From NCBI GenBank assembly GCA_000004985.1, contig GG738845.1: a DNA stretch of 64,000 nucleotides; one strand, written 5' to 3'. The notes under the pieces were generated by a model. The model had not been told where the DNA came from. It did no database searches and was given only the letters and a program-made list of their open reading frames with translations. A program made the position numbers and the translations under genes. How positions within the stretch are numbered: position 1 is the stretch's first letter; the number at the start of each line of letters is the position of its first letter. The DNA comes from Naegleria gruberi. Lineage: Eukaryota. Shown one piece after another: positions 1-50,603 of this stretch.

Positions 1-3000
1 CAACTTCAAATTTAATCCATTTATTCAGATTTACTGATACCAAGAAACAAAAAGAGTTTATCAAAAAAACTGACGATGAAGTTAATGCAGAAAAGATATT
101 TGAAAGGTATTCTCAACTGAAAGAAAATATTGTCGATACTGTTGTTGGAATGCTAACAAAGGCAAAGGGAAATGTATTGATAGATTATGAAGTAAGAAAA
201 AAACTTTTGGATTTTGTTAAAGACGACACACAACAAAAACACAAATGGGAAAGACTGAAACTTATCTTACAAGCAAGTGGAAAAGTTGAATATTTTAAGG
301 CAATTTTTGAAAACAGACTTACCTATTGTGTTCGTCTTCTCAACCAAGATAACAATTTATCTTCCTCTAATCCTATTGCTACAAATAATGCAATAGAAGA
401 TGGATTACTAAATCCTGGATTTGATATGGAAAGGCCTCAACTCTATCAAATGTATGACTATATAGAAAAGTTTGGTGGTAAAAGTGGATTAAACCACATG
501 GACATTTATCAACATTTTGAAATGACATCCAAAGTGAGTGGCAACCTTTGCAACGATTTGAGGAAAGACTTTGGTGTAACTTCTGTAGCAGAAAAGGGAG
601 AAAAACAGGCTAAATCAACAAGTTATAGATTTTTCGTTCCTTACATTAAAGAAGTAGAAAATGATAAAGCTAATGAAGTCTCTAACAATGAACAGGAATC
701 TCCTCAAAAATCCAAGTCTAGGAAAAAAAAGAAATCTCAACCACCTAAACAATCAACAAATAATTCTCAAGAACAAGTACAACAAGAGGTCCAGTCTGTA
801 TTGCCATCAATTAATTTGGAAGATTCTAGTGATTCTCTTTATGATAGTGATACAGGAAGTGATGACGAAAGTGATGAAAATAAGCCAGCCCTTACTCCAA
901 GCCAATATTTGAGGACAGAAGGAAAGAGAAAAGAAGAAGGATCCAGAAAAGAGGTAATAACTAAAAATTTCTCAGAAAGATGCAAATTGGCTCTTTCCTT
1001 TTTGAAAGAAAAGAAGTGTATTGCCAGATTTCAGTTGAGAGAACATTTTAAACAAAATAATGTTAGTGTGGAAAGCAAAGCTATATCAAGATTGATTCAA
1101 TACTTGGAATCGAATAACCTTGCTAAAAAAATGACTATTGCTGTACCTAGTTTATTTGGAACAACCTCAAAAATGCACATATGTTTAATTGATTGTTCTT
1201 TGGATATGAAATCAAAGACTGTACAGGACTTTATTACAAGTTTATACTCTCATGAAGTACAAGTTAATTCAAAAGAAAAAGTTGATAGAACAATTTTAGA
1301 AAAAGTTGATAGTATCGATCACTTAGAGACTAAAAGGTCTCAAAAAAGATTTTCCTACTTGCCACTCTTTCATTCACTTCTTAATGGCTATATCAATGCA
1401 AAAATGTTGCGAGTTAGGGTATTCCATCAATATCTATGGAATAAGGTGAATGAGGGATCTGTTAATCCTGAGCGTATTTGCCTTTATGATATTTATAGTA
1501 ACATGTCTGTTTCTCTATTTTGTAAGCTTGTTGGTTGTATTGCAGAAATCAGACTTGGTTCAGATGATAAGGAGATTTTACAAACAGTAACAATTTCTAA
1601 TGCGCCAGAAAATATTAAAAAAGCTGTTGATGCATCGGTAGTGGGAAGAAGAGCAGTTGCTCTCTCAAGAGTTGAAACATTTATTGATATAATGGAGAAG
1701 TTGGGATTATTGGTTGTACAGGCTATACGTGATAAAGAGAGCAAATCAAAAGTTTTTTCATTATTGAAAACAGTAGAATTTCCTTTCCCACAACAATTCC
1801 CTGCAACAGAGTACAGACAAGTTACATTTAATTCAATTAATGATGTAGAAGAATATTGGGACGATTTGGAAATGTGTAGTGTAAATATGGAGACTATTAG
1901 ATGTGAGCCAATTGGTGATGATCAAGAAGATAGCCCACAAATTTTTTCAAAGATTCAAGATTTGGGAAAAAGACCTAGTTGGACTGAGTATAGACATTTT
2001 TCTTTGAGGCAACTTCGTATTTTAGAGGCTTCTTATAAGGAGAATCAAACACCAAATTTTGAGGAATGCGACAATATTTGCAAAAAATTGAGAATACCAA
2101 TGGAACAAGTTGTTCTCTATTTTTACAGATATAGAAACTCTATTCTTAGCAAGCGTATTTCAGATATTGGTACTATCCCAGAGGGTCAATCCAAGTCAAA
2201 TACTAAACGTAAAAAGGACGATGATTTTATAGTTGGTGATGACGAAATTGAGTATGAAAGCAATGATGAGAATGTAGAGGTTAGAGCAAAAAAAACAAAG
2301 CGTTTGCCATCTGTTTCATTGTTATTGATTGGAAATAGAAAAACAAGGAAAGGCTCTACCAGAAAGGGCAACAAAAAACAACCTACCGATACTAATGAAA
2401 ACACAGAAAAACAAAAAGAAAAAACGATACCAACAAGAGGGTACAAGTGGACTAATGAGCAAGATCTTTTGCTTTTAGAGGGACTCTCAAGGTTAAGGGA
2501 ATTGGATCCAAGTACTGGTACTTTCCTTACAAAGCCTATAAAATGGCAAGAAATAGCAGATTCTATTGGTGATGGTATAACAGCCAATCGGTGCAAATTG
2601 AGATGGAATAATGTTTTGAGAAAACTTCCATGGTGTAAGAGAGCACTTGAGCTTGCTATTGGTCACAGAGATTTAAATAAGAACAATCCAAATATTCCTC
2701 CCATAGAAATAAGAACGCTTGTACAAACCTGTAGAGATCAGTACAGAATCGGACCTTCTGATTCTAATAATCAATTAATGAGTGTAGATCTTCCTAGAGA
2801 TTTAATCAATATTGTAAAATACTTTAAAGTTATAAGGTTTGAACCACTAGTAGAGGATAATGCAGACGAAAATATCAATATCACTACAGAGAATAGATTG
2901 AGACTCAGTTCTTTGGAAACCCTTTTCAAAATTATTCTACTTACCCCTGATGAACACTATGATGTAAAATTAGCCAACAAACTTGTTAAAAGATTCAAAT

Positions 3001-4553
3001 CAAAGGAAATAGAGGAATGTTTTAACAGTTTAAGAAAGAGATCAATAATATCCAAGTCTAAAAGAGGTCTAAGAATGAAGGGTTACCATCTCAACATTAA
3101 TTTTACAACAAAAACCACCGTGAACTTTTATCCACCAGAAATTTTTGAAGATGCTCCAAAATTCAGAAAAAGAGCGTTAATGATTAATGAGGAGGATGAC
3201 TCTGATGAAGAAGATGATATGGAGGTTAAACCACTATTTAATAGACATGGAGCATGCTTTAATCCTCAAAGCTCTGGTGGTGTAGTAGCAGCTTTAATGA
3301 GTATGGTAATGTTGGAAGAAATTAGGTTAATACCAAGGGTTGCACCACTTTCCGAAGAAGAAAAAAATCAAGTAGGAAGAACTCGTAGTATCCAAGATAT
3401 GGAAGAGGATGACGGAACAGGCGTCAGTAATCATTTACTAAGGGTGGGAGCTGTGAGACCTGGTGAGAATGATCATATTCATGCAGAAGGTACAAACATT
3501 AAAAGTTCACACGGCTCACTACAATTACCAGATTGGACGATAGCTATAGAATCCATCACTGAAGTAAATTTATTTAGTGAGATGGGAGCTGAAAATGAAC
3601 ATCAAACCCACATTTCCAGAATAGTATCTGAGTACGGGCACAAACTCTCTAGTATTGAATTTTCTATTGAACTCCCAGATCAAGAGAATGAGAATAAGAG
3701 AGAAAGAGATGAATTTAACCAAGATAACACCTATGACCCACCTCAAAAGAAAAAGAAACAACACCACATTACTAACTCTGAAATTGAGGCATATTTCGAA
3801 ATGTATGCTGCAGAAAGTAGTTCTATAACAACATTCACCAATGATCAAATAGATTTTGTTGAAAATATTACATATCCAGAGATTAAACCTCTTGCACAAT
3901 ATATTATAGAATCTGGAGTTGAAGAATATTCATTTTGGATAGAAAGGATAATTTTGGTGTATTCATTTATTGGTAATACCAAGTTTGAAGGGGCAAACTT
4001 TGACACTATTTCTCAAAAATTTTCAGATTTTTCTACTGATTATGATCTTTCGATCAAAGAAATATTACAACAATTAGTTAACTTTAATTGTATTGTGGAG
4101 GTAAATTCTGAAAATGAAACAAGATTTTTGAGATTTGAAGAAGCCAAATTGCACACAATACCATACTCAGAAAATGGTGCAACACAATATAGACCAATTT
4201 CAGTCTTCAGACAATTATCAGGAGAGTTAAATGATAACCTTTTACAAAACTTTAAAAAATGTATCATCTCCAGAATTATGAGATATCCTGGTATTTTGGA
4301 AAAAAAGCTTATCAATAGTATTGGTGTTATTTCTGCCCAGGATATAAGAAAAGTATTAGGATTTTTGGAGGATGACCAAATCATTCAATCTAGCTATCAT
4401 AGAGCAACATCTAACGAGAAATTGAAGTGTAAAAATATATTATTCATGCATCAAGATGAGATGGATGACTTGGAAAACAGTGATTGTTACCCTACAGAAT
4501 TTCATAGATCTCTTTTTGTTACCCCAAAATATATTTTCTTCTCTACACAATAA
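1..4553 (+). CDS. Large nuclear protein (>1,500 aa) with one Myb/SANT-like domain; truncated at the 5' end by the window edge. Product unknown; a TFIIIC/SNAPc-like DNA-binding factor is only a guess.
   Basis: The frame of the 150..4553 ORF stays open, with no stop, back to nt 3, so the gene starts upstream of the window. It contains a Myb/SANT-like segment 'RGYKWTNEQDLLLLEGLSRL...WQEIADSIGDGITANRCKLRWNNVLRKL' and K/R-rich and acidic (D/E) low-complexity stretches. The stop is TAA at 4551-4553. Confidence 0.55.
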   Translation, partial: TSNLIHLFRFTDTKKQKEFIKKTDDEVNAEKIFERYSQLKENIVDTVVGMLTKAKGNVLIDYEVRKKLLDFVKDDTQQKHKWERLKLILQASGKVEYFKAIFENRLTYCVRLLNQDNNLSSSNPIATNNAIEDGLLNPGFDMERPQLYQMYDYIEKFGGKSGLNHMDIYQHFEMTSKVSGNLCNDLRKDFGVTSVAEKGEKQAKSTSYRFFVPYIKEVENDKANEVSNNEQESPQKSKSRKKKKSQPPKQSTNNSQEQVQQEVQSVLPSINLEDSSDSLYDSDTGSDDESDENKPALTPSQYLRTEGKRKEEGSRKEVITKNFSERCKLALSFLKEKKCIARFQLREHFKQNNVSVESKAISRLIQYLESNNLAKKMTIAVPSLFGTTSKMHICLIDCSLDMKSKTVQDFITSLYSHEVQVNSKEKVDRTILEKVDSIDHLETKRSQKRFSYLPLFHSLLNGYINAKMLRVRVFHQYLWNKVNEGSVNPERICLYDIYSNMSVSLFCKLVGCIAEIRLGSDDKEILQTVTISNAPENIKKAVDASVVGRRAVALSRVETFIDIMEKLGLLVVQAIRDKESKSKVFSLLKTVEFPFPQQFPATEYRQVTFNSINDVEEYWDDLEMCSVNMETIRCEPIGDDQEDSPQIFSKIQDLGKRPSWTEYRHFSLRQLRILEASYKENQTPNFEECDNICKKLRIPMEQVVLYFYRYRNSILSKRISDIGTIPEGQSKSNTKRKKDDDFIVGDDEIEYESNDENVEVRAKKTKRLPSVSLLLIGNRKTRKGSTRKGNKKQPTDTNENTEKQKEKTIPTRGYKWTNEQDLLLLEGLSRLRELDPSTGTFLTKPIKWQEIADSIGDGITANRCKLRWNNVLRKLPWCKRALELAIGHRDLNKNNPNIPPIEIRTLVQTCRDQYRIGPSDSNNQLMSVDLPRDLINIVKYFKVIRFEPLVEDNADENINITTENRLRLSSLETLFKIILLTPDEHYDVKLANKLVKRFKSKEIEECFNSLRKRSIISKSKRGLRMKGYHLNINFTTKTTVNFYPPEIFEDAPKFRKRALMINEEDDSDEEDDMEVKPLFNRHGACFNPQSSGGVVAALMSMVMLEEIRLIPRVAPLSEEEKNQVGRTRSIQDMEEDDGTGVSNHLLRVGAVRPGENDHIHAEGTNIKSSHGSLQLPDWTIAIESITEVNLFSEMGAENEHQTHISRIVSEYGHKLSSIEFSIELPDQENENKRERDEFNQDNTYDPPQKKKKQHHITNSEIEAYFEMYAAESSSITTFTNDQIDFVENITYPEIKPLAQYIIESGVEEYSFWIERIILVYSFIGNTKFEGANFDTISQKFSDFSTDYDLSIKEILQQLVNFNCIVEVNSENETRFLRFEEAKLHTIPYSENGATQYRPISVFRQLSGELNDNLLQNFKKCIISRIMRYPGILEKKLINSIGVISAQDIRKVLGFLEDDQIIQSSYHRATSNEKLKCKNILFMHQDEMDDLENSDCYPTEFHRSLFVTPKYIFFSTQ

Positions 4554-6402: not shown

Positions 6403-8770
6403 ATGAGCAACATTGGTGTGGCACGATCGTCTATAAATCTTGTTAGTCCTCTCACTCTATCTTCCCCTATCAATATTGGTGGTCCACAACTGGAAAGAGA
6501 TCAAAAACACTTCCCATTTTCAAGGAGTACCATGGATTTAAAAGAAGTGGAACGAAATAATAAGGATTTAGTTGTACCCTCAAACCGAACAGATGACCCT
6601 TTCAAGGATTTTCCTGCAACTACCGATGTATTATCATGCAAAACCAAAGTGAATGAATTAGAAGTACAAATAGAATATCTTAAAGACATAGGTATGTTTT
6701 ATTTAGTATTAAAACTGTTAATCAAAATTAAATAGTTCAAAGGTTGAGTGACGAAATGGCTAGGTATCAGGTAAAATATCCGCCAATTGTTTCAAGTGAT
6801 TCCGAAGGAGCTTGTTCTACGTTAATTGCTCCATGGTTTTACAACTCCCAACACATGAACCCTCTTCTTGTATCATACGATCACAGAATCATGGAATTAA
6901 CAAACGAAATTAAACTCTATAAGGAAAAAATTGAAACAATGACAATTGAAGTAAAAGCAGTGTCATCAGAAAATGAAGATCTTCAACATAGTTTGAAAAA
7001 TATGATTGAAAAACATCTGTCAAAACCCAATGAGCCAGGGTCTTCGATTCCTTTCAACATTCCTACTGAAGAATGGGACGAACTTCAACAGAGAGTTGAA
7101 CTATTAGACAGAGAAAACAAGTTGTTATTGGAGGAGCAAAGAGAGCTTCAAAATGAAATTGATCGATTGAGAAACGAAAATAGAAGACCATATGTTGAGT
7201 CATCATTATCTTCGACAGATTCTGATAGAACTCGTTTAATGCTGGAAAGTGCAAAAAAAAAAATTTCATCCTTGCAAAGAGAAAAAGAAGATTACCAAAG
7301 AGAGATTAAAAGGGCTAGGCATTTGGAATCTGTTGTTGGTGATTTAGAAAGAGCACTAAGTTCCAGTAATCAGAGATGTAAATTGTTGGATGAAGAATTA
7401 GAAAAACATAAATGCTTGATAGACGACTTGAATCATGAAAGAAAGCGATTTTTCCAAACAGAAAAAACCATCAATTACAAGGATATAGAGATGACAGGTT
7501 TGTTATTTACTTTCTTAATATTAGTTACAATTTGAAAGAACTTCGTGACAAGTTGACAATAGCACTCAGGGAAGGAGATGAAATAAGGGAAGAAAAAAAT
7601 AAGATTTTACATGAAATAAGCCAAATGGAGCAGAGAATAGTTGCTTACCAACAGAGTGAATTTGAAGCTTTACAAAAAGTGAAGGAAACTATGGAGTTAC
7701 TTGAAACAACAAAACTAGAAAGAGATACTGCTAGAACAGCTATAAAGAACAAAGAACAGGAAATTGAAAGGTTAGAAGAAAAGAATAAGAAGCTTTCTAA
7801 TGACTATTCTGAAAGGTTTAAAAAATTGTCTTCACATTTTCAAGAAAAACACAAGGAATCACTCCAAGCTTTGGAAGATCAACTAAAAATATTACAAATA
7901 GAGAATGGCCATTTAAAATCAGATGTAGACAGGTTAAAAAGAGAGAAAAAGTTAGTATTATTTTAAATATTATTCAAACACAATATTAGAACAACTGAGA
8001 ATGAGTTGACCAAGGTAATTAAGGCTGCCGAGACTGAGCAATTAAATTCACCATTTGTTGTTAATGATTTAAACCAACAGATTAACCATTTAACTAATGA
8101 GAGAGATGAATCAGAGAGGATGTACGAAAGATTAAGAAACTCTCATAGAAGAGCTCAACAACAATGGGAGCAGGAGCGAGAACAATTGAATGCAAGATAT
8201 CTTGAGTTACAAAAAAGAGTTTCATCAATTGAATCAGAATCCGAGGAACAAAGACAAAACAACATAAGATTAAACGAACAAATCAATAGACTTGAGCAAC
8301 AATGCCAAAATGTTAAGTTTGAAAAAGAAGAGGTTGAAAGATCATTGAAAGACTCGATACGAACCCAACAAGAACTTTCATCTCATGATACAAGAGATCT
8401 AAGGAAAAAGCTTGCTCTAACTTTAGAGGAATATAACAGAGCAGAAAACTCATTACACCAACTCAATATGAGACATCAAAAAGAACAATTGCAGTGGAGA
8501 GAAGAGTTTAGTAAGTTTAAGGAAAAAAAGGATAAGGAAGTACACGATTTGACATCAATTGTTGAGCAATTAACAAGAAGAAACCAAGAAATGGAGGGTA
8601 AAATCAAACTCCTTTTAAAGAAAGAAGAAGAACTTCTTAATCAAAAGAAAGACCTTCATATCAGAGCTGACAAGTTAACAATATATCTGGAGAGAATGAA
8701 AAGAGAAAGAGATATGCTCGCAAAACACATGGAAGGGAAGATTACAGATATTAGTTTTGGTTTTGAGTAG
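6403..8770 (+). CDS. Coiled-coil protein of about 700 aa, four exons, function unknown
   Basis: Exons are 6403..6691, 6736..7497, 7539..7950 and 7990..8770, joined by 39-45 nt GT-AG introns (donors gtatgt, gtttgt, gttagt). The joins keep the frames of the four ORF-track segments. The protein is heptad-rich and E/K/R/L/Q-rich ('ELQNEIDRLRNENRR', 'LERDTARTAIKNKEQEIERLEEKNKKL'). No specific family was recognised. Confidence 0.5.
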
Positions 8771-8833
8771 CTGGCAATAAAATTAATTGTTTAATGTTTG
8801 GAATTTTAATTTAAATTATAATTAAAAAAAGAA

Positions 8834-9255
8834 ATGTCTGTTGATGAGAAAATCTATGCGGAAAAAATTAAAACTTTTGGACATGGTTTTATACGATATT
8901 TGAATACAATTGATGATGCTTTCGGAAAATACTTCGACAAAGTGTAGGTAGTTAATTACATTGAATTTGTATTTATGCCCACAAACTTAAAAGAGAAAAA
9001 TCTCTGGATGATCCTTTGAGCAAGGAGGAAGCAATAAACGATTTAGCAGCAATACAAAAATTAATTAACCAAGTTTCTAATGTTACCGACGCAAATAATT
9101 TGTATAGTTTTCTTCTTCCACCAAAAGAAGATGCATTGGAACAACTGGAAATTAGAGAAAAAGAAAAAGAAATCAAAAAACAACATCTTATTCAAATATC
9201 AAAAAACTCTACACTGGTACAGGAGCTTGTATCAAAGTTTGATATTGTCGAATGA
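8834..9255 (+). CDS. Small (about 124 aa) helical/coiled-coil protein, two exons, unknown function
   Basis: ATG at 8834. Exon 1 is 8834..8943, the intron is 8944..8993 (gtaggt...aaaag) and exon 2 is 8994..9255. The product is 'MSVDEKIYAEKIKTFGHGFIRYLNTIDDAFGKYFDKVEKSLDDPLSKEEAINDLAAIQKLINQ...'. Confidence 0.4.
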
Positions 9256-9369: not shown

Positions 9370-12300
9370 ATGTCTTCCCAAACCTTGAACGTGCAGGCTC
9401 TGTCAGAACAAACGAAGGAGGAAAGCCCTATGAAATCCTTTCCAAGGTTTAGACCATTTCTCAAAAGTGAAGTAGAGAGTTCAGGAGACGATAAGCCAAA
9501 ATGTTGTGCTGCATTTCATAAGGTAGGTTGAGATTGTTTGAGTGTTGTTTAAAAATCCGAAAGAATGGAAAAAATATTTTGATAAAACATGGTGTTTCGT
9601 CGAATGTTGAATTTACTTTTGACAAAGTGTTGAAAACAACCAATACACAAGAAGATGTATATAATAGTTGTGGAGATGATATTATGAAACATATATTAAA
9701 GGGCCATAACTGTACATTATTTGCACTTGGGGCCCACCAATCCGGTACGTATCATTCATTTTAAAACTTAACTTTCTAATACACATACGAAACAGGTAAA
9801 ACATATACCCTTTTTGGTAACGTAGCAAAATCAGCTAATTGGGCAACTGAACTGGAAAATCAAAAATTTGATGGTATTGCTCCTCGTTTTATAAGAGCTG
9901 TTTTTGATTTTATTATGAATCAAAGCCCAGAAAATATAGAATTCTCAGTTTCTCTTAATGCATTCGAAATTTGTGGATTGGAAAATGGCAATGACGCCTT
10001 AATGAATGATTTATTAGCTAATACCTCGACACCTCCAAAATTAGACGTACTCGTTGAGGAGGAAACTAATGCTGTGGAAATTGTTGGACTTCAGGAGGTT
10101 TTTGTTACAAGTGATAGTGAATTGTTTGAAAATATTTCTGGTGCACTAATGAAAAGATCTAAAAGTAAGTATTTAAAACTTCATTATATTATATATTTGT
10201 ATAGAATTTAGCACAGCATTCTTTGAAATTAAATTTGTACAACATGACACTTCAACTAACTTGACAAAGGAAGGAAGATTGTGCATTATTGATTTGGATT
10301 CTGAACGCTCCAGTGATCAATATAGGAATACCAGAAAGACTGGATGTAAAGTTTTTCAAGAGGTAGCAGAATCTCTCTACACGGAAGTTGAGGATTATGA
10401 CTATTTCAGTACAACTCTAAAATGCCTTGTATTTTCTAGAGTTTTTGTGAATACAGCCACATTTTCCTTTGTGACTTTATCTCCAATGATATCGGTAGTA
10501 GAAGACCAAACCATTCCATATTTACAACTGGCATCCAAGATTTGTGAACTCTCTAGTGATGTCATGGTAAATTATGTACAAGATCCTATTGTTGAAACTC
10601 CACAAGAAGAAGAAAAATCAATCCCTACTCCGCATCCAGTAGCTTCTGTGCAAGCTAATGCCAAGGTAGAGGCTGTACAACAGGAAGAACTAGCCAAACC
10701 AATTGGCAACCCTACTTCCCTGCCTACCACAAATGAAAAAAAAGAAATTCCAACAATCCTTGACATTCCACCGAAACCAACTCAATCAATCACTGATGTA
10801 ACGAAATCTGAGGAATATATGCAAATTTTGAAGGAAAAAATTAACATTGAAGAGGATATATTACTCCTACGCACACAATTCAATTCGCTTAAGGATCAAC
10901 TTGAACGTGAAGAAGAAAAAGCTAGTAAGTTTGAAAAAGAAGCCTCTTTAAAAGATAGTGCCACTAAAGAGCTTGCAAAACAATTGAAAGAAAGCTTTGC
11001 ACTCACAGAACAACTTCAAAAAGAAAGAGACCGCTACGAAGAGCAAGTCAAAGCATCTCAAAATGACATTCAACAGTTGAAAGAGAAATTGATTCATGAA
11101 GAATCTATTAGGGATGAACTAAATGAAAAGGCTCACGAACAAGAAAAAACACTAGCAAATTATAGGTCATCAGAGGAGCAAATGACTATTCAGATTACTC
11201 AACTTAAAAAAGAGTTACAAGAATTTAAACAATCTTCCAACACTAATCATGGAAGTATCCCGACTCCTCTAAAAAACAAAGGAGAAGAACTAGAAAAGGA
11301 AGTAGTATTGCTCATAAAAAGCCAACATGAAGAATTGAAAAATGCATATAACGAACTCTCAATCAAAATTGTTGAACTTGAAAAGAAGAACATTTATCTG
11401 GAAGAAGAACTTGTAGATGCTGAAAAGAAAGCACTTGAAGCTGATGACCCATCCCACCAATTAATTGAAAAGCTAAAATCAAAGAACAAACTGTTATTAG
11501 AACAGTTGAACCTGTCAAAGAGAGAAAATTTAAAATCTCGTGAGAAATCAGTAGAAATTAACATGAAACTTATTGAACAAAAAATTCAAGAATATCAGCA
11601 GTTAGTAAATCAATCATCAACAGTGTTACCAACTCCACTTAACGATACAACAGTCACTGTAAATAATGAAGATTTGGAACCAATATCTCCACAAGAAAAA
11701 CTCAATGTTCAAAAGTTGAAAGAAAAGGTTACAGATCTTACCAACAAACTTACTACAGCTCGTAAGAAAGCAACAGAAACTGAAATTGCAAGAATGAAAT
11801 GGCAAGAAGGTGAAAAGGCGACACGACAAAAAATCTCTGATTTGGAAAATGAGATTGAAGAGCTCAAACAAAAAATGACGGCAAAAGAATCATCCTTAAA
11901 AGAAGAAATTGATCAATTACAAAAAGAAATCAATAGCTGGAGAGAAACTGACCAAAAGATCAAGTCTGAATTGAAAAAAATTGAAAAGGAAAAACAAAGC
12001 TTGGAACAAGTTATCAAAAAGGAAAATGTTAACAGAAAAAAGAGTGTAATGGTTATGCATCAAGTACAACAAGTTCAAGAAAGTAATAATTTGATTTTGA
12101 GAAATGAGTTAGCTCAAGCTAGAGAGAGAATTGAATATTTGGAGCGTGAACTAAAAAAAATCGGTGGACCAGGTATGAAAATATCATCCAGATCTCAAAC
12201 AATCTCCCCATCATCACGCAGTCCTATGACTCCAACTAGTGAATCTTCCTCACAAAGTCTCCCAACAACAGCTCCTAAAAAACTGGATGACAATTCCCAG

Positions 12301-12858
12301 AAAGACCTTAGACAAAAAGAGATTCAATCCAAGAGACAATCTGTTCTAATTAATAAGAATGCAATGCAGGCACTTCGAGTAAACATTCAAACAGAAAAAC
12401 CAAAACAAGAGATCTCCTCCCCAACAGAAGATATTCATGATGATGCAGATGAAGAAGAGTACGGAAAACAATTCGCATCCAATACATATGATCCACACCA
12501 AGCAAACGAAACGACCATGTCGGAAAATGTGAACCCCAAAATAGACAAATCAGGATATCTCTTTAAGAAAGGTCCGAAAATCAATATTTTCAAAAAGAGA
12601 TTCTTTAAGATTGAAGGTCATAATCTAATATATCAAACGGATAGTAAGGATTCCAAAGCTCTTGGTTCAATTGATTTGAGAACAGCTCTCACTGATATTG
12701 CTCCTGAAAAATCGAGTAATAAGAGAAAATATGTTTTCAGAGTAGAAATTCCAGGAAGAACCTACTTTATGTCAGCACCATCCAAAGAAGATAGAGATGA
12801 ATGGGTTATTTCTTTGAGACATGTCATTCAAAAACTGAGCAATGAAAATAGTTTTTAA
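9370..12858 (+). CDS. Kinesin-like protein with an N-terminal divergent motor domain, a long coiled-coil stalk and a C-terminal PH domain
   Basis: Exons are 9370..9522, 9564..9744, 9796..10165 and 10212..12858, with introns of 41, 51 and 46 nt (donors gtaggt, gtacgt, gtaagt). The spliced motor contains 'VEFTFDKVL..TNTQEDVY', 'HNCTLFALGAHQSGKTYTLFG' (P-loop), 'FSVSLNAFEICGLENGNDALMNDLL', 'MKRSKSTAFFEIKF' (switch I position), 'RLCIIDLDSERSSDQ' (switch II position) and 'KVFQEVAESLY'. The C-terminus has the PH-domain pattern 'GYLFKKGPKINIFKKRFFKIEGHNLIYQ...EWVISLRHVIQKL'. Confidence 0.8.
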
Positions 12859-12990: not shown

Positions 12991-14693
12991 ATGATCATTC
13001 CTCTCACTCATTTTGACAATGTGATTGTTTGTGGTTCTAACAAACATTCACAACTTGCCCTATTTCCATCACAAATGCAGGAACTTGAACAATTTTCAGA
13101 CCAAACAAAATCATATTTTGATTACATTCCGATTGACGTTAGCAAATTAATGAAGTCCGGTAGTGAAGAAGAAATTATTCAAGTTTGCATTGGTTTAACG
13201 TTTACATTATATTTGTCCTGTAGGTTAATAAGTCATTTAGACAATTTTGTGACAAATGTTTTCCTGTAGCATACTCACGTGTTTATTGTTGTTGTGGAGA
13301 TGAAGAAGTTCATTCCCTATTTGATAGGTCAACCTTTACAATTATTTGTGCCCAAGTGCCTAATTTTAGATGGATACACTTTTTTGAACTATTGAAAAGA
13401 GATGGCATTTTTGTATCAGAGATATCATGTGGAGCAAGACATTGTCTATTTTTCATGTCCAATCATGAATTATATGTATGTGGATCCAATGAGTTTGGGC
13501 AATGTGCACAACCTAAACCACTCGAAAGAATTGTAATTCCTCTCAAAATAACAATGAAATCATTTCCTTATTCACCATTTCATTCTGAGGATCCACTTAA
13601 TTCAAGGAAGAGGAAAAGAACAGAAGAAAATGAGAGTCTTTTATCAATGATGGAAGACAATATCTCTTCGAATATTATCAAAGTTAAATGTTCATATGAT
13701 TATTCTGTTATCCAAACTACGGACGGAAGGGTTTTTGCAACTGGAGATAATGGTGAGTACAATAACTATCACAATGACTGACAAACCAAGAGTACAAACA
13801 AATAACTAATCGCGATATGACTGACAAACTCTTTGGATTTACACCTGTGTATTTTAGAAATTTAAAACAAGAGGAATATTTAAACATTAAGGATATTATT
13901 ACAATGGACAGCTACATTTTAGCATTAACTCATTCAGGATATTTGTATATTAATGAAGGAGGTACAACATTTACAGATATGGGGTTGAATGTTGACTATT
14001 TCAGTAATCCAAGTAATTTAATTGTAAATATTTTTGCAACCTCCTACTCATTCTTTATACGGACGAGGTCTGGTGAGGTTTATTATGTAGAGCAAGGACT
14101 CTCAAAAATGGTAAAATCGAGTTTATTATCATTTAAAAGTTTTAATCCAAGTGCTGGGAGATATCATTTGGCTTCTATATCGACGAATACTCATGATTAT
14201 GGATTATTTGAGGTTATTGGGTATAATAAGGTTAGTTGTATGAGGTAGTGAATAACATTAACATTATTTACAAAAGTTAGGAAATTTGGGAATTAAAACC
14301 AGCACAGAAACTGTTAAGGAAACAATATCAGTACCCAAAGTATCTAAATGGATCCAATGCAAGGATATGAGAACATTCGATTATAGGATTGCCGCTAACT
14401 TTTTCAATACCATAGTTTATCGAGTCAAAAAACCTGAATTAGTTTCAGTCGAGAGATTTAAAAGGTTACTCTTCTCCTCTCTCATTAATGATCAATATGT
14501 GAAAGAAACTCAAAATATTCATAATCCATTCTTGGAAATGTTTAATGAATATTCAAAAAGAATTATTTCAACAAGAAACTTTCACGATATTTCAATTCTT
14601 ACCACAGATGGATTTTTAACTACTAGTACCTTCCACAATAGTGAATACAAACTTGTACAGCCAACCAATAATGCAAATTTTCAGCTTGCCTAA
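12991..14693 (+). CDS. RCC1-repeat (regulator of chromosome condensation-like) protein; multi-exon, exon boundaries not fully resolved
   Basis: ATG at 12991. Repeated RCC1 motifs appear in successive ORF segments: 'VIVCGSNKHSQLA', 'LYVCGSNEFGQCAQP', 'VFATGDNGE' and 'CIGLTFTLYLS'. The segments 12991..13269, 13356..13781, 13817..14248 and 14286..14693 are in different frames with GT-AG candidates between them, so several short introns are implied. Confidence 0.5.
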
Positions 14694-14851
14694 CTGTGAC
14701 TAACTATCAAAATATTTTCGATAAAATTGAGAAGAATGTTGAAAAAGTAAGTTGATCATTTACCTGATATTGAAAAATAAGTATTGTATGCAAGATTAAT
14801 TCTACAAACAAATAATTCAATCTGACACTTAGTAAACTTGTTATAATTTAT

Positions 14852-17452
14852 TTAACTTGTCCATAATCTGATTGTTTTATCTGACCCAGCCGTGAACAGC
14901 CAAGGTTGAATTGGGTGGAACTTACAATCCAAAACACCCAAATGCGATCTCTTCTTGTGTCCTCTCAAAATTTTAACTGGAACAATTTGAGTTTCTTTTG
15001 TCCAATCGTCTGTATAGACTTGTCCATGGAAAACATTTGCTGTGGTATCATCCGAGCAAGTAGCAAATAATGGATATCTTTTGTGGAAGTCTACATTTCT
15101 AATAGCTCGAGTGTGGAATCTCATTGTCTTGTAAGGGTGAGATGAGATAGCCAAGTCAAACCATTCCATTCTTTCATCAAAACCACCAATCAATACATGT
15201 TCTCCTGAAGGATGGATAGCAATGGATGAAACATAATTACACTTTTGTCCCTTCAACTTCTTTGAAAGTCTTTGTGTTTGTAAATTATAAATTCTCACCA
15301 TAGATGTGGAAACAACGTAAAAATGTGGTTTCTTTGGGTGGAATTGAACCTTGATGAACTTTTGGGATGCATTCCTAACTTTAACATTCTCCTTGAAAAC
15401 CTTTTGTGTGGAACGGTGAGACAATTGATGAACAAGAACACCTTGAGAGTAAGAATTTGGAGCTAAAGAAGAAAAATAGTCACCCTTTTGATGCCAAGTA
15501 ACTTGTGTAACACGAGATTTGTGAATAATTTGACACATTATACCATCTCTTCTTTTCACTGTTTCCATATCTTGATTATTGCCACGATAGAATTTCCAAG
15601 TTACTAATTTGACTCTTCTTCCTTTTCTTGATTTTCCTTCGATATCACGTTTGTCTTCTTCGTCCTTCTCTTCTTCATCTTTCTCAGTTTGATCTTCTTC
15701 TCCTTGTTCTTCCTCATCGTCTGAAATGTCATACTCGTCACCATTTTCATTTTGGAAACCTCTATCAGGGAAAAGCTCTTCAGTAAGTTCATTTGTAATT
15801 TCATTACCTGACTCTTCTGGCTTGATTAAAAATACTGAGCTACCAACAGCCACAGCAAATAAATTGAGTTTGGCATTTGGGTTCCACTCAACCCATTTTG
15901 GTACGTTTTCAATATTGCCATCAATACCTACACGTTGAGGCTTCTTATCATTTTCTTCCTCATTGTTGGACTTGCTATCGGTTGTTATGCCCAAATTGTA
16001 ATGTAAAAAGTTCCAAACTCTTCTGCAACGTCCAGTATCAACCTCCCACAATCTGACAGTACCATCTTCATCAGAACATGAAACTAACCATTTTCCGGAC
16101 GGATCAACGCTGATTGATCTTACCATTCCTTCGTGACCTTCATAAATTAGAGATTGAATTTCAGGATAAGGTCTCAACTCTTCTGGCTTTGGTAGTTGTG
16201 GTAGTAATGTATCAGGATCTTCAACAAAGTTCTTCTTTTTCATTGGTTGTACACGAGGTGCAAGATATAAATCCATACATCTTTCAAAACGTTCTTGAAT
16301 GAATTTGTCATAAACTGGTACGCTTCTCAAAGAATCATAAATCTTGTATTTGAATTCCTTTCCCTCTTTAGCTTTTTCAGGAATATATTCTGGTGGTGGG
16401 TTATAACTCAAATTGTGACCAGGTAATTTCTCCTTTGGTGGTGGTAAAATACCAATACGTGAAATCTTCTCTCCTAGAATTTGTCCATCTTCTCCCCACA
16501 TTAAATATACCTTATCCTTCTTTGGTTTCACTGTTTCTTGGTTCATTAATGCTGGATTTCTCTTATATCTCAAAGCAATCTTTGAAATCATTTTCATTTC
16601 AGATTTGTTTGGCAAAAACTTTGACTTAGCTACTGGGTTACCATACATAGGGAAACGAGAATCAATCTTGACATATTCCTCATAATCCTTGTATGGATTG
16701 TATCCTGGTGGGAATTGTCCTTTCACTCCAATATTGATAATAGTTTCTAAATCTTCATTGGAAAGAACATGTTCCTTATCATTGTATTCATCGTAGACTG
16801 TACGTAAATAATTAGGATCATCATGTTTAGCAATTAAATTATCCAAAGCATCCTTTTGTTTCTTTTTTAATATTTTGTTTCCACTACGGTCGTATCCAAT
16901 ATGGTCATACTCTTCGTACCATTCTAATGGAACATTACCAATAGTATTTATCATTCCTTCATCTTCACTACTATCATCACTGTCATGAACATCAGCAAAT
17001 AATGATTTTTCTTTGGTTTCTCTTGTTTGATTTTTAGACTTTTTTTGCAATGACTTCTCGTACCAAGAATCCTCAAGTTCATCATTAATGGAGGTCAAGT
17101 TTGTAAAGCTTTCAAAAACTTTAACGTCTTCTTCGTCGGAAGACTCTTCCTCTCTTTCAATGTCTTCTTCTTCTTCTTGATCAATTTCTATTTCTTCATC
17201 ACTAATATATACATCATCATCGTCATCAGCACTGAGTGTGGTTGCTGTATTTGGATTGCTGGAATCTTCTTCATCAGAAGAATCATCTTCCTTCATTGTT
17301 ATTTTAGGCAATTCCTTGACAGAAGAAGCTGTTTTAGTGAATCCGTATCTTTCTGGATTTTCTTCTGCCTTGTTCTTTTTTTCGTTCTCTTCATCATTTG
17401 TTGAAGAATTTTTAGACACCAATTGTCTCTTTTTCATTTTTTTCGGAATCAT
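14852..17452 (-). CDS. BOP1: Ribosome biogenesis protein BOP1/Erb1 (WD-repeat)
   Basis: Single 866-aa ORF with ATG at 17452. It has an acidic N-terminus, then a BOP1NT-like region ('YDEYNDKEHVLSNEDLETIINIGVKGQFPPGYNPYKDYEEY...RFPMYGNP...ALRYKRNPALM'), then C-terminal WD repeats ('GHEGMVRSISVDPSGKWLVSCSDEDGTVRLWEV' and a terminal 'FTAGSDKTIRLWTS'). Confidence 0.85.
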   Translation of the reverse strand: MIPKKMKKRQLVSKNSSTNDEENEKKNKAEENPERYGFTKTASSVKELPKITMKEDDSSDEEDSSNPNTATTLSADDDDDVYISDEEIEIDQEEEEDIEREEESSDEEDVKVFESFTNLTSINDELEDSWYEKSLQKKSKNQTRETKEKSLFADVHDSDDSSEDEGMINTIGNVPLEWYEEYDHIGYDRSGNKILKKKQKDALDNLIAKHDDPNYLRTVYDEYNDKEHVLSNEDLETIINIGVKGQFPPGYNPYKDYEEYVKIDSRFPMYGNPVAKSKFLPNKSEMKMISKIALRYKRNPALMNQETVKPKKDKVYLMWGEDGQILGEKISRIGILPPPKEKLPGHNLSYNPPPEYIPEKAKEGKEFKYKIYDSLRSVPVYDKFIQERFERCMDLYLAPRVQPMKKKNFVEDPDTLLPQLPKPEELRPYPEIQSLIYEGHEGMVRSISVDPSGKWLVSCSDEDGTVRLWEVDTGRCRRVWNFLHYNLGITTDSKSNNEEENDKKPQRVGIDGNIENVPKWVEWNPNAKLNLFAVAVGSSVFLIKPEESGNEITNELTEELFPDRGFQNENGDEYDISDDEEEQGEEDQTEKDEEEKDEEDKRDIEGKSRKGRRVKLVTWKFYRGNNQDMETVKRRDGIMCQIIHKSRVTQVTWHQKGDYFSSLAPNSYSQGVLVHQLSHRSTQKVFKENVKVRNASQKFIKVQFHPKKPHFYVVSTSMVRIYNLQTQRLSKKLKGQKCNYVSSIAIHPSGEHVLIGGFDERMEWFDLAISSHPYKTMRFHTRAIRNVDFHKRYPLFATCSDDTTANVFHGQVYTDDWTKETQIVPVKILRGHKKRSHLGVLDCKFHPIQPWLFTAGSDKTIRLWTS

Positions 17453-28213: not shown

Positions 28214-28294
28214 CGCGGTCTACAGGATTCGAACCTGTGCGGGTCGCCCCAATTGATTTCTAGTCAATCACCTTAACCACTCGGTCAAGACCGC
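28214..28294 (-). tRNA. tRNA-Ser (anticodon AGA), class II tRNA with a long variable arm
   Basis: The minus-strand sequence GCGGTCT-TG-ACC-GAGTGGTTAAG-GT-G-ATTGA-CTAGAAA-TCAAT-TGGGGCGACCCGC-ACAGG-TTCGAAT-CCTGT-AGACCGC-G folds as a full cloverleaf. The acceptor stem (7 bp), D-stem (3 bp), anticodon stem (5 bp), variable stem and T-stem (5 bp) are all Watson-Crick. The T-loop is TTCGAAT and the anticodon loop CTAGAAA gives anticodon AGA. It is near-identical to metazoan tRNA-Ser(AGA). CCA is not encoded. Confidence 0.95.
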
Positions 28295-50396: not shown

Positions 50397-50603
50397 TTTT
50401 TTTAATACTTGTTCAAACAATTATTTATTTTATTGTCCTTTTGTATTGGAACTTAGCAAAATTATTATTTTAACAAAATTAATGTATGATGATTAATACA
50501 CTTGTTAAATATTTTAATTTCATCTCGTTTTAATTAAACCATGACGATGAAGTCCTTATTCGTATTGTCATAATTGAGTTTTCATCAAAACAGGCCCAAA
50601 AAA

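What the first reader, a model, noticed from the sequence alone, without database searches (positions are those of the whole stretch)
9370..12858. Kinesin-like protein with non-canonical switch I/II motifs and a C-terminal PH domain
Splicing three short GT-AG introns gives a complete N-terminal kinesin motor, but the catalytic signatures are altered. The P-loop is GAHQSGKT rather than GQTGSGKT; it still fits the Walker-A pattern GxxxxGKT. At the switch I position the sequence is RSKST rather than SSRSH, and the region is two residues shorter. At the switch II position it is DLDSER rather than DLAGSE: the invariant glycine is replaced and the glutamate is shifted. In canonical kinesins the switch I arginine, the switch II glycine and the switch II glutamate are needed for ATP hydrolysis and for the salt bridge between the two switches. 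This motor may therefore bind nucleotide but hydrolyse it poorly or not at all, which would make it a pseudokinesin. It is fused to a stalk of about 550 residues of coiled coil and a C-terminal PH domain (predicted phosphoinositide/membrane binding). A C-terminal PH domain is otherwise a kinesin-3 hallmark, but this protein has no FHA domain and does not look like kinesin-3. It could be a membrane-microtubule tether rather than a transporter.
Basis: partly seen in the sequence, partly recalled or inferred. Interest (0 to 1): 0.6.

Follow-up and report, generated by a model that had tools for sequence, protein, structure and literature searches.

The report
Conserved Naegleria kinesin-like pseudomotor with PH tail
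This Naegleria gruberi gene encodes a kinesin-shaped protein that keeps its nucleotide pocket but has lost the loops a kinesin needs to burn ATP and sense microtubules, carries a lipid-binding PH domain at the other end, and is conserved under strong selection in related amoebae including N. fowleri, so it is probably a non-motile membrane adaptor rather than a transport motor.

Summary
The gene is real: NAEGRDRAFT_61244 of Naegleria gruberi, four exons at 9370-12858, 1118 aa. It has an N-terminal kinesin fold, about 450 aa of segmented coiled coil, and a C-terminal PH domain.

The switch I junction is wrong: it reads RSKKFST, not RSKST, and the loop is 9-11 residues short, not two.

RefSeq mis-splices intron 1 and drops 46 motor residues.

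Orthologs exist in N. fowleri, N. lovaniensis, Willaertia and Acrasis, with a second paralog. All keep the P-loop, RxRP and the switch II Asp. All lack SSRSH and DxxGxE, have a truncated L11, and have replaced the Y138/R203/E250/N255 coupling network and the basic microtubule-contact residues R278, K281 and R284. The head is nevertheless under strong purifying selection (dN/dS 0.08).

Published microarray data show no induction in flagellates, and amoebae lack cytoplasmic microtubules.

Best reading: a conserved heterolobosean pseudokinesin acting as a PH-anchored, non-motile adaptor. Microtubule tethering is possible but unsupported. It was already catalogued as a 'kinesin, unknown family', so this is a new variant of a known kind.

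The parts
9370..9522 (+). Exon 1 (residues 1-51). Contains the RFRPF adenine-pocket motif (N4) at 9445-9459 and the start of the family-specific KPKCCAAFHK insertion.
   Evidence: The exon end (after CAAFHK) is conserved in N. lovaniensis, N. fowleri and Willaertia.
9523..9563 (+). Intron 1, 41 nt, GTAGGT...AAAG. The RefSeq/JGI model instead uses the acceptor at 9701.
   Evidence: The orthologs encode NGKNILIKHGVS... directly after CAAFHK.
9564..9744 (+). Exon 2 (residues 52-112). The first 46 residues (9564-9701) are missing from XP_002683093.1. Ends inside the P-loop (GAHQSG|).
9745..9795 (+). Intron 2, 51 nt, GTACGT...ACAG. Specific to N. gruberi (absent from the orthologs).
9796..10164 (+). 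Exon 3 (residues 112-235). Covers the P-loop end (KT), a long L5, the beta-core, alpha3 and the start of the truncated switch I (KRSK).
10165..10204 (+). Intron 3, 40 nt, GTAAGT...ATAG, phase 1 inside a Lys codon. Position and phase are shared with N. lovaniensis and N. fowleri.
10205..12858 (+). Exon 4 (residues 235-1118 plus the stop codon). Covers the rest of the head, the neck, linker, stalk, linker and PH domain.
9729..9803 (+). P-loop GAHQSGKT (residues 107-114, spans intron 2). GxxxxGKT is invariant in every family member that covers it.
10152..10224 (+). Switch I remnant KRSKKFSTAFF (residues 231-241, spans intron 3). The loop is 9-11 residues shorter. SSR is lost and only S204 is kept.
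10285..10308 (+). Switch II remnant IIDLDSER (residues 262-269). D231 is kept and the Gly is absent. It is followed by an L11 that is 10 residues short.
10324..10452 (+). Remodelled alpha4-L12-alpha5 (residues 275-317: RNTRKTGCKVFQEVAESLY TEVEDYDYFSTTLKCLVFSRVFVN). L12 is acidic, and F and R are family-invariant at KIF5B positions 278 and 289.
10549..10584 (+). Neck-linker-like segment LSSDVMVNYVQD (residues 350-361) with the conserved Asn (KIF5B N332). It is modelled as a docked strand in the N. lovaniensis ortholog.
10585..10806 (+). Pro/Glu-rich linker (residues 362-435), poorly conserved (dN/dS 0.31).
10807..12168 (+). Segmented E/K/Q/L-rich, heptad-compatible stalk (residues 436-889). Presumed dimerising coiled coil.
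   Evidence: crude heptad score and composition; dN/dS 0.11
12169..12543 (+). Ser/Pro/Gln-rich linker (residues 890-1014).
12544..12828 (+). PH domain (residues 1015-1109) with the basic beta1-beta2 motif KKGPKINIFKKRFF at 12565-12606.

Best explanation
The gene encodes a member of a conserved, heterolobosean-centred family of kinesin-derived pseudomotors.

Shown computationally:
- The head has a kinesin-1-like fold. It keeps the nucleotide-binding elements: P-loop GxxxxGKT, RxRP, the aromatic residue after the P-loop, and the switch II Asp.
- The switch I loop is cut down to a 5-residue turn. Switch II lacks the Gly. L11 is 10 residues short.
- The residues that couple microtubule binding to the active site (Y138, R203, E250, N255) and the basic microtubule contacts (R278, K281, R284, K313) are replaced. 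A different surface, conserved within the family, takes their place: acidic L12, invariant F278 and invariant R289.
- The head, stalk and PH domain are all under purifying selection.

Inferred:
- The head binds nucleotide as a structural or locked cofactor, but it cannot run a microtubule-stimulated ATPase cycle or step.
- The roughly 450-aa stalk dimerises the protein.
- The PH domain, which is PLEKHA-like and carries the K-x-small-x6-K-x-R-F-F motif, recruits the protein to phosphoinositide-containing membranes.
- The molecule therefore works as a static, membrane-anchored adaptor. Its remodelled alpha4-L12-alpha5 face binds a partner that is not yet identified: either microtubules in a non-canonical mode or a non-tubulin partner.
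For: - Gene model and domains.
- Organism.
- Orthologs and paralogs (N. lovaniensis, N. fowleri FDP41_011697 and FDP41_010265, Willaertia, Acrasis, environmental sequences).
- Motif and residue maps against 136 canonical kinesins.
- Role of the Y138/R203/E236/E250/N255 network, and the 1000-fold defect of N255K: PMC4383081.
- dN/dS between N. lovaniensis and N. fowleri: head 0.084, PH 0.046, stalk 0.109, linkers 0.18-0.31.
- AlphaFold2 model of the N. lovaniensis head: pLDDT 93.7, pTM 0.92. Its best Foldseek matches are kinesin-1 structures, TM 0.78-0.88.
- The PH domain resembles the PLEKHA4-7, DAPP1, TAPP1 and Grp1 PH domains, and the basic motif is conserved.
- Expression: log2FC 0.001 between amoebae and flagellates, whereas flagellar kinesins show -3 to -9 (PMC9036621 Table S1). 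Amoebae lack cytoplasmic microtubules.
- No hidden exon restores the canonical motifs.
Against: - No biochemistry exists. Loss of ATPase and of microtubule binding is inferred from sequence alone.
- The P-loop, RxRP, D231 and the neck-linker Asn are invariant, and the head is very strongly constrained. That would also fit a still-working enzyme with an unconventional active site.
- A few basic residues remain at the start of alpha4 (R/K at KIF5B positions 252, 255 and 256 in Naegleria and Willaertia).
- The AF2 model is of the ortholog (73% identical), not of the N. gruberi protein, and its alignment is dominated by canonical kinesins.
- The microarray value of 0.001 could reflect a weak or uninformative probe rather than equal expression.
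- The coiled-coil call rests on a crude heptad score.
Confidence: 0.6

Rival explanations
1. Rigor-like membrane-microtubule tether. The nucleotide-locked head binds microtubules statically, and the PH domain binds membrane. The protein would link flagellate cortical or rootlet microtubules, or the intranuclear spindle, to a membrane.
For: - Kinesin fold, with the neck and P-loop retained.
- Some basic residues remain at the alpha4 N-terminus.
- In kinesin-1, switch II Gly mutations are classically described as giving tight-binding, non-hydrolysing heads (own knowledge; the search did not retrieve a statement to cite).
- Cos2 is cited as binding microtubules independently of ATP (PMC2867816).
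- The family's distribution (Naegleria, Acrasis) parallels that of the divergent mitotic tubulin clade. The paralog 71914 is amoeba-enriched, like the mitotic kinesins.
Against: - R278, K281, R284, Y274 and K313 are all replaced, L12 is acidic, L11 is truncated, and the net charge of the interface is reversed.
- N255, which contacts alpha-tubulin, is replaced.
- The gene is not induced during flagellate differentiation.
- Amoebae have no cytoplasmic microtubules, and their spindle is described as assembled only in mitosis.
Confidence: 0.22
2. It is still an active motor. The family evolved an unconventional active site and tubulin interface, and it transports PH-bound membranes.
For: - dN/dS of 0.084 in the head.
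- Invariant P-loop, RxRP, D231 and neck-linker Asn.
- In Naegleria and Willaertia a Glu aligns with E236 if one gap is allowed.
- Acrasis has DLDkfGQE, which contains GxE.
Against: - Switch I is a 5-residue turn lacking both Mg/gamma-phosphate serines and R203.
- Switch II is not conserved within the family (DLDSER, DLDAER, DFDSES, DLNTIH, DLQSHL, DYEKNE, DLEASQ). A catalytic loop would not be expected to vary like this.
- The whole coupling network is replaced.
- A 75-aa Pro-rich linker, rather than a neck coil, follows the neck linker.
Confidence: 0.12
3. It is a decaying pseudogene or a gene-prediction artefact. On this view the kinesin-like N-terminus is not part of a functional protein.
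For: The RefSeq model is mis-spliced. The motor-only word search initially found no close relatives. One N. lovaniensis paralog model has a frameshift region.
Against: - The reading frame is intact with consensus GTAxGT donors.
- The same architecture occurs in at least 5 species.
- Intron positions are conserved.
- Purifying selection acts on every domain.
- The independently annotated N. fowleri protein is 99.9% identical to my reconstruction built with the same exon logic.
Confidence: 0.02

Closest known systems
Kinesin-1 heavy chain motor domain (KIF5B; PDB 1MKJ, 3J8Y)
   Same: - N-terminal head with the same fold (Foldseek TM 0.78-0.88).
- It is the best sequence match among solved kinesins: 75.6 bits for the single sequence and 117 bits for the family profile.
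- P-loop, RxRP, D231, N293 and the neck-linker Asn N332 are conserved.
   Different: - SSRSH and DLAGSE are absent, L9 is 9-11 residues shorter and L11 is 10 residues shorter, and L5 is about 10 residues longer.
- The coupling network and the basic microtubule contacts are replaced.
- There is a 16-residue KPKCCAAFHKNGK insertion near the N-terminus.
- No neck coiled coil follows the neck linker directly.
- The tail is unrelated and ends in a PH domain.
Kinesin-3 (KIF1A/Unc104 type)
   Same: An N-terminal kinesin head plus a C-terminal PH domain predicted to bind phosphoinositides.
   Different: - No FHA domain.
- L12 is acidic instead of a lysine-rich K-loop (the K-loop is from own knowledge).
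- KIF1A is a weaker match than kinesin-1 or kinesin-5: 46 bits against 75 and 65.
- The switch motifs are degenerate.
- Wickstead et al. list N. gruberi's true kinesin-3s separately.
Plant KAC1/KAC2 (kinesin-like protein for actin-based chloroplast movement)
   Same: A kinesin-like head that is reported to lack microtubule-binding activity. It works in anchoring an organelle to a membrane (PMC3402901).
   Different: KAC is derived from kinesin-14 and is restricted to plants. It has no PH domain, and its function is tied to actin. For the Naegleria protein, loss of microtubule binding is only inferred.
Other degenerate kinesins: Smy1 (yeast), Costal2 (Drosophila), VAB-8 (C. elegans)
   Same: These are highly divergent kinesin-like heads that were treated as atypical or excluded in kinesin phylogenies. 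[quoted passage not shown]
   Different: They are unrelated lineages with different tails. I made no sequence comparison with them here. The Naegleria family keeps an intact P-loop and RxRP.
Paralogs in the same family: N. gruberi NAEGRDRAFT_71914 ('ND, divergent, KISc-PH' in Wickstead 2010), N. fowleri FDP41_010265, N. lovaniensis C9374_008802
   Same: - Same architecture and the same degenerate motifs: GAQ(D/H)TGKS, REPSTVF, DFDSES, DDFDYFATTLRCLLFSRIFVN, and the PH basic motif.
- 71914 is likewise classed as 'kinesin, Unknown'.
   Different: The paralogs are about 40% identical overall to this gene. 71914 is amoeba-enriched (log2FC +2.57), whereas this gene shows 0.001. I could not retrieve the 71914 sequence, so its assignment as the N. 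gruberi copy of this paralog is an inference.

Membership tests
Kinesin superfamily (motor-domain fold, Pfam PF00225) | Significant match to the kinesin motor profile | tested here: met
   PF00225 E 1.4e-32, 113 bits against a cut-off of 29.3. Only profile positions 1-256 of 327 are matched. A custom profile of 136 canonical motors gives 141 bits.
Kinesin superfamily (motor-domain fold, Pfam PF00225) | Kinesin three-layer alpha/beta fold including alpha4-L12-alpha5 and alpha6 | tested here: met
   AF2 model of the N. lovaniensis ortholog (73% identical head): pLDDT 93.7. Foldseek top hits are kinesin-1 and Eg5, TM 0.75-0.88. Not run on the N. gruberi sequence itself.
Kinesin superfamily (motor-domain fold, Pfam PF00225) | N1 P-loop GxxxxGK[ST] | tested here: met
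   GAHQSGKT. Invariant G85, G90, K91 and T92 in all family members that cover the region.
Kinesin superfamily (motor-domain fold, Pfam PF00225) | N4 RxRP adenine-binding motif | tested here: met
   RFRPF at residues 26-30. Invariant in all members that include the N-terminus.
Kinesin superfamily (catalytically competent motors) | N2 switch I NxxSSRSH | tested here: not met
   KRSKKFST. There is a 9-11 residue deletion. S201, S202, R203 and H205 (100% conserved in 136 canonical motors) are replaced.
Kinesin superfamily (catalytically competent motors) | N3 switch II DxxGxE | tested here: not met
   DLDSER. The Gly column is deleted or substituted (S/A/K/T). Glu is alignable only with a gap, and only in Naegleria and Willaertia. 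The loop is variable across the family.
Kinesin superfamily (catalytically competent motors) | [quoted passage not shown] | tested here: not met
   Y138 is replaced by C/S/T, R203 by F/H, E250 by Q/P/T and N255 by R/S. The network is defined in PMC4383081.
Kinesin superfamily (catalytically competent motors) | Conserved basic microtubule-contact residues in L11, L12, alpha5 and alpha6 | tested here: not met
   K237 and K240 are deleted. R278 is replaced by F, K281 by T/S, R284 by C/A and K313 by I/L. The net charge of L11-alpha5 is -1..-8 against +1/+2. Which residues contact tubulin is from own knowledge of kinesin-1 mutagenesis.
Kinesin superfamily (catalytically competent motors) | Microtubule-stimulated ATPase and motility | not testable with these tools
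   Needs purified protein.
Kinesin-3 | FHA domain after the neck | tested here: not met
   No FHA hit even at E up to 1.
Kinesin-3 | Lys-rich K-loop in L12 | tested here: not met
   L12 is TEVEDYDYF, net charge -4.
Kinesin-3 | C-terminal PH domain (KIF1A/Unc104 subgroup) | tested here: met
   PF00169 E 3.6e-17.
Kinesin-1 | Motor domain groups with kinesin-1 | tested here: inconclusive
   Kinesin-1 is the best-scoring solved family, but only 12-13 bits above kinesin-5. No phylogeny was run. Published surveys class the gene as 'Unknown'.
Kinesin-1 | Neck coiled coil immediately after the neck linker; conserved KHC stalk and tail | tested here: not met
   A 75-aa Pro/Glu-rich linker follows the neck. 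No kinesin-1 tail similarity appears in the Pfam or homology searches.
PH domain (PF00169), phosphoinositide-binding subclass | PH profile match | tested here: met
   E 3.6e-17. PLEKHA6 PH domain 1.3e-12.
PH domain (PF00169), phosphoinositide-binding subclass | Basic beta1-beta2 motif K-x-small-x(6-11)-[RK]-x-R-hyd-hyd | tested here: met
   KKGPKINIFKKRFF. The motif is present in all Naegleria and Willaertia members and in environmental P0169, but not in Acrasis. The motif definition is from own knowledge. Lipid binding itself cannot be tested here.

The most novel reading that the evidence does not exclude
In this lineage the kinesin fold may no longer be a microtubule protein at all. On this reading it is a nucleotide-locked, PH-anchored module whose rebuilt alpha4-L12-alpha5 surface binds a non-tubulin partner, for example cortical actin machinery, in crawling amoebae that have no cytoplasmic microtubules. 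That would be an independent parallel to plant KAC. A related variant is that the surface was re-tuned to the divergent mitotic tubulins shared by Naegleria and Acrasis, and that the protein ties the spindle to the nuclear envelope.
Probability: 0.3. Interest if true: 0.7.

Novelty: new variant of a known kind. Interest (0 to 1): 0.5.

Why it matters
Catalytically dead relatives of motors are rare and little studied. This family combines three features: an invariant nucleotide pocket, switch loops that are deleted rather than merely mutated, and a replaced but strongly conserved surface where tubulin normally binds.

It occurs in organisms whose amoeboid stage has no cytoplasmic microtubules, and these include the pathogen N. 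fowleri (two paralogs). That makes it a natural test of what a kinesin fold can do without its cycle.

There is also a practical point. The RefSeq model of the N. gruberi gene is mis-spliced, and this is a plausible reason why it is absent from Wickstead et al.'s (2010) Pfam-based kinesin list.

Tried and rejected
- The motor-only word-index search returned only five weak canonical kinesins and suggested an orphan. That was a sensitivity failure. The full-length search found the annotated gene and its orthologs.
Exact look-ups of the BOP1 ORF and of P0006 found nothing.
- My 1118-aa model is not in the protein collection, so I obtained no transcript-level confirmation of the intron 1 acceptor. 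The support for it is comparative only.
- The afdb50 fold library was unavailable.
- Searches of paper texts by accession found nothing. The gene appears only in a supplementary table. The supplements of the 2024 preprint are not held.
- Kinesin-3 membership was rejected: no FHA, no K-loop, and a weaker match.
- A pseudogene was rejected on dN/dS and conservation.
- A hidden exon restoring SSRSH or DLAGSE was rejected by a six-frame motif scan.
- The alternative intron 1 acceptor at 9542 (a 20-nt intron that would add CCLKIRK) was rejected because the orthologs lack those residues.
- My heptad score also flags parts of the globular head, so it is not specific.
- I did not model the PH domain or the stalk.
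Full report
**Organism and locus.** The window is Naegleria gruberi. A neighbouring 866-aa ORF (14852-17452, minus strand) is 100% identical to N. gruberi BOP1, with 72% identity to N. lovaniensis and 66% to Willaertia. The window is 33% GC and gene-dense, with long ORFs and short introns.

**Gene model.** Three-frame translation and splice-site inspection give exons 9370-9522, 9564-9744, 9796-10164 and 10205-12858. The introns are 41, 51 and 40 nt, all GTAxGT...AG, and the product is 1118 aa.

The public model is XP_002683093.1 / NAEGRDRAFT_61244 / D2UXU4, annotated 'predicted protein'. It agrees on introns 2 and 3 but uses an intron 1 acceptor at 9701, which removes 46 residues. Those residues (NGKNILIKHGVSS...MKHILK) are conserved in N. 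lovaniensis, N. fowleri and Willaertia and form part of the kinesin core, so the public model is mis-spliced.

Intron 3 lies in phase 1 inside a Lys codon, at the same site as in N. lovaniensis and N. fowleri. I rebuilt the N. fowleri gene from a Logan contig using the same exon logic. The result is 99.9% identical to the independently annotated FDP41_011697 and has the same length. I could not obtain transcript evidence for N. gruberi itself.

**Domains.** Pfam finds Kinesin (E 1.4e-32), but only profile positions 1-256 of 327 are matched. It also finds PH (E 3.6e-17, residues 1015-1109) and no FHA domain. Between them lie:
- a Pro/Glu-rich linker (residues 362-435);
- an E/K/Q/L-rich, heptad-compatible region broken by prolines (residues 436-889);
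- a Ser/Pro-rich linker (a crude score).

The PH domain is closest in sequence to the PLEKHA4-7, pleckstrin, DAPP1, centaurin, TAPP1 and Grp1 PH domains. It carries the basic beta1-beta2 motif KKGPKINIFKKRFF. That motif is conserved in all Naegleria and Willaertia members and in an environmental relative, but not in Acrasis.

**A conserved family.** The full-length search found several relatives:
- orthologs in N. lovaniensis (56% identical), N. fowleri and Willaertia magna, plus one in a JGI metagenome;
- a paralog in N. lovaniensis (40% identical);
- a homolog in Acrasis kona, annotated 'kinesin heavy chain'.

N. fowleri has both the ortholog (FDP41_011697) and the paralog (FDP41_010265).

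A family profile was searched against 1.84 billion representative proteins. Family members scored 150-590 bits and ordinary kinesins at most about 153 bits. The search added environmental members (P0137, P0140, P0141, P0169 with a PH tail) and two EF-hand-plus-head proteins (P0145, P0183).

**Motif and residue analysis.** I used three alignments, and all agree:
- MAFFT with canonical kinesins;
- hmmalign to a profile built from 136 canonical motors;
- L-INS-i with kinesin-1 references, plus the 136 canonical motors added.

It was checked against database kinesin-1 sequences P0133 and P0135 and against the PDB alignment.

Residues kept in every family member: R14, R16 and P17 (RxRP); G85, G90, K91 and T92 (P-loop); an aromatic residue in nearly every member at 93; S204; D231; N293; and the neck-linker Asn N332.

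Residues and elements lost:
- Switch I is 9-11 residues shorter, and S201, S202, R203 and H205 are gone.
- Switch II has no Gly. The profile alignment reads DLD-SER, so a Glu can be aligned in Naegleria and Willaertia. Across the family, however, the loop varies freely (DLDAER, DFDSES, DLDKFGQE, DLNTIH, DLQSHL, DYEKNE, DLEASQ).
- L11 is 10 residues shorter.
- The closed switch-loop network that Shang et al. describe as universally conserved is Y138, R203, E236, E250 and N255. In this family all but possibly E236 are replaced. N255K alone lowers microtubule-stimulated ADP release up to 1000-fold (PMC4383081).
- On the microtubule face, Y274, P276, R278, K281, R284 and K313 are replaced, L12 is acidic, and the net charge of L11-alpha5 falls from +1/+2 to -1..-8.

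Of the residues that are at least 80% conserved in canonical motors, 27 are kept and about 52 are changed. The changes cluster in switch I, switch II, alpha4, L12/alpha5 and alpha6. The replaced surface is itself conserved within the family: F at 278 in 8 of 9 members, and R at 289 in 9 of 9.

No frame of the + strand of the locus encodes canonical motifs.

**Fold.** The AlphaFold2 model of the N. lovaniensis head, built with an 81-sequence alignment, has pLDDT 93.7 and pTM 0.92. It shows alpha3 joined to beta6 by a 5-residue turn where switch I should be, a short alpha4, and a strand where the neck linker docks. The best Foldseek matches are kinesin-1 structures (1MKJ, 3J8Y, 8RHB; TM 0.78-0.88), followed by Eg5. 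By sequence, kinesin-1 is also the best solved match, then kinesin-5, KIF4, CENP-E and KIF15. KIF1A is weaker.

**Selection.** Nei-Gojobori dN/dS between N. lovaniensis and N. fowleri:

| Region | dN/dS |
|---|---|
| Head | 0.084 |
| PH domain | 0.046 |
| Stalk | 0.109 |
| Linkers | 0.18-0.31 |

The head is as conserved as the PH domain: 73% identity between N. gruberi and N. lovaniensis, and 57% between N. gruberi and Willaertia. This excludes a decaying domain.

**Literature.** No paper text in the library names the gene.
- Velle et al. 2022, Table S1, lists it as 'kinesin, Unknown family, JGI 61244, XP_002683093.1'. The log2 fold change between amoebae and flagellates is 0.001, and an alternative model 5496 is noted. 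Flagellar kinesins in that table are at -3 to -9, and 71914 is at +2.57. [quoted passage not shown]
- Wickstead et al. 2010 list Naegr_71914 as 'ND, divergent, KISc-PH' and excluded such sequences from their tree. Gene 61244 is not in their list, probably because of the truncated model.
- Naegleria amoebae lack cytoplasmic microtubules.

**Interpretation.** The data support a pseudokinesin. The nucleotide-binding pocket is preserved, but the machinery for hydrolysis and for microtubule-to-active-site coupling is deleted or replaced. The coiled-coil stalk and a phosphoinositide-type PH domain are under constraint as well.

I conclude it is a non-motile, membrane-anchored dimeric adaptor (confidence 0.6). 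The microtubule-tether half is possible, but the interface changes and the expression pattern weaken it (0.22). An unconventional active motor is less likely (0.12). A pseudogene or artefact is essentially excluded.

**Limits.** Everything about nucleotide, microtubule and lipid binding is inferred from sequence. The structure model is of the ortholog. The coiled-coil call is crude. The microarray value may be uninformative. I ran no phylogeny and could not retrieve the N. gruberi 71914 sequence.

Noticed in passing
window 9523-9701: RefSeq/JGI model XP_002683093.1 uses an intron 1 acceptor at 9701 and omits 46 conserved motor residues encoded at 9564-9701. The orthologs show that the 41-nt intron (9523-9563) is the coding-consistent choice.
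   Followed up: yes
L001 6191-6214; L002 5114-5137; L003 6313-6336; L005 6214-6237: A 24-nt microexon encoding NGKN(I/V/F)L(I/L)K is present in N. lovaniensis, N. fowleri, Willaertia and the paralog. In N. gruberi it is fused to the next exon. Conversely, the intron that splits the P-loop codons (window 9745-9795) is found only in N. gruberi.
   Followed up: partly
L005 about 7280-7350 (N. lovaniensis C9374_008802): The annotated paralog model splices out the switch II/alpha4 region. The DNA reads IIDFDSESPYDEQRKIHRDGCYTLRQ and then shifts frame by 1 nt. The N. fowleri paralog FDP41_010265 reads through in frame. This looks like an assembly indel or a lineage-specific frameshift that the gene model works around.
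   Followed up: partly
P0145, P0183 (JGI metagenome proteins): Environmental proteins carry an EF-hand-like N-terminus followed by the same kind of degenerate kinesin head (GQERCGKT, KRKIESTIFAE, FIDIAKQE) and have no stalk or PH domain. The degenerate-head clade may therefore extend beyond the PH-tailed family. Their source organisms are unknown.
   Followed up: partly
window 12991-14700 (+): The downstream neighbour is an RCC1-repeat gene with short introns (RCC1_2 E 3.6e-16 on the ORF at 13356-13781).
   Followed up: no
window 6744-9255 (+): The upstream neighbour appears to be a multi-exon coiled-coil protein. It comprises ORFs 6744-7535, 8006-8770 and 9016-9255, has only a sub-threshold bZIP hit, and ends 115 nt before the kinesin-like gene's ATG.
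   Followed up: no
window 28214-28294 (-): tRNA-Ser (anticodon AGA), lying between protein-coding genes.
   Followed up: no
window 150-4553, 14852-62740: The other genes in the window look like ordinary housekeeping genes: a TFIIIC-like/Myb protein (150-4553), BOP1, Cdc73, RIC1, VPS9/MORN proteins, exportin-7, methylmalonyl-CoA mutase (50574-52904), Sec1 and a RalGAP-like protein.
   Followed up: no
The word-index homology search with the 373-aa head alone missed the 96-100% identical N. gruberi entry and all orthologs. The full-length query found them. This is a caution for 'orphan' calls made from that tool.
   Followed up: yes
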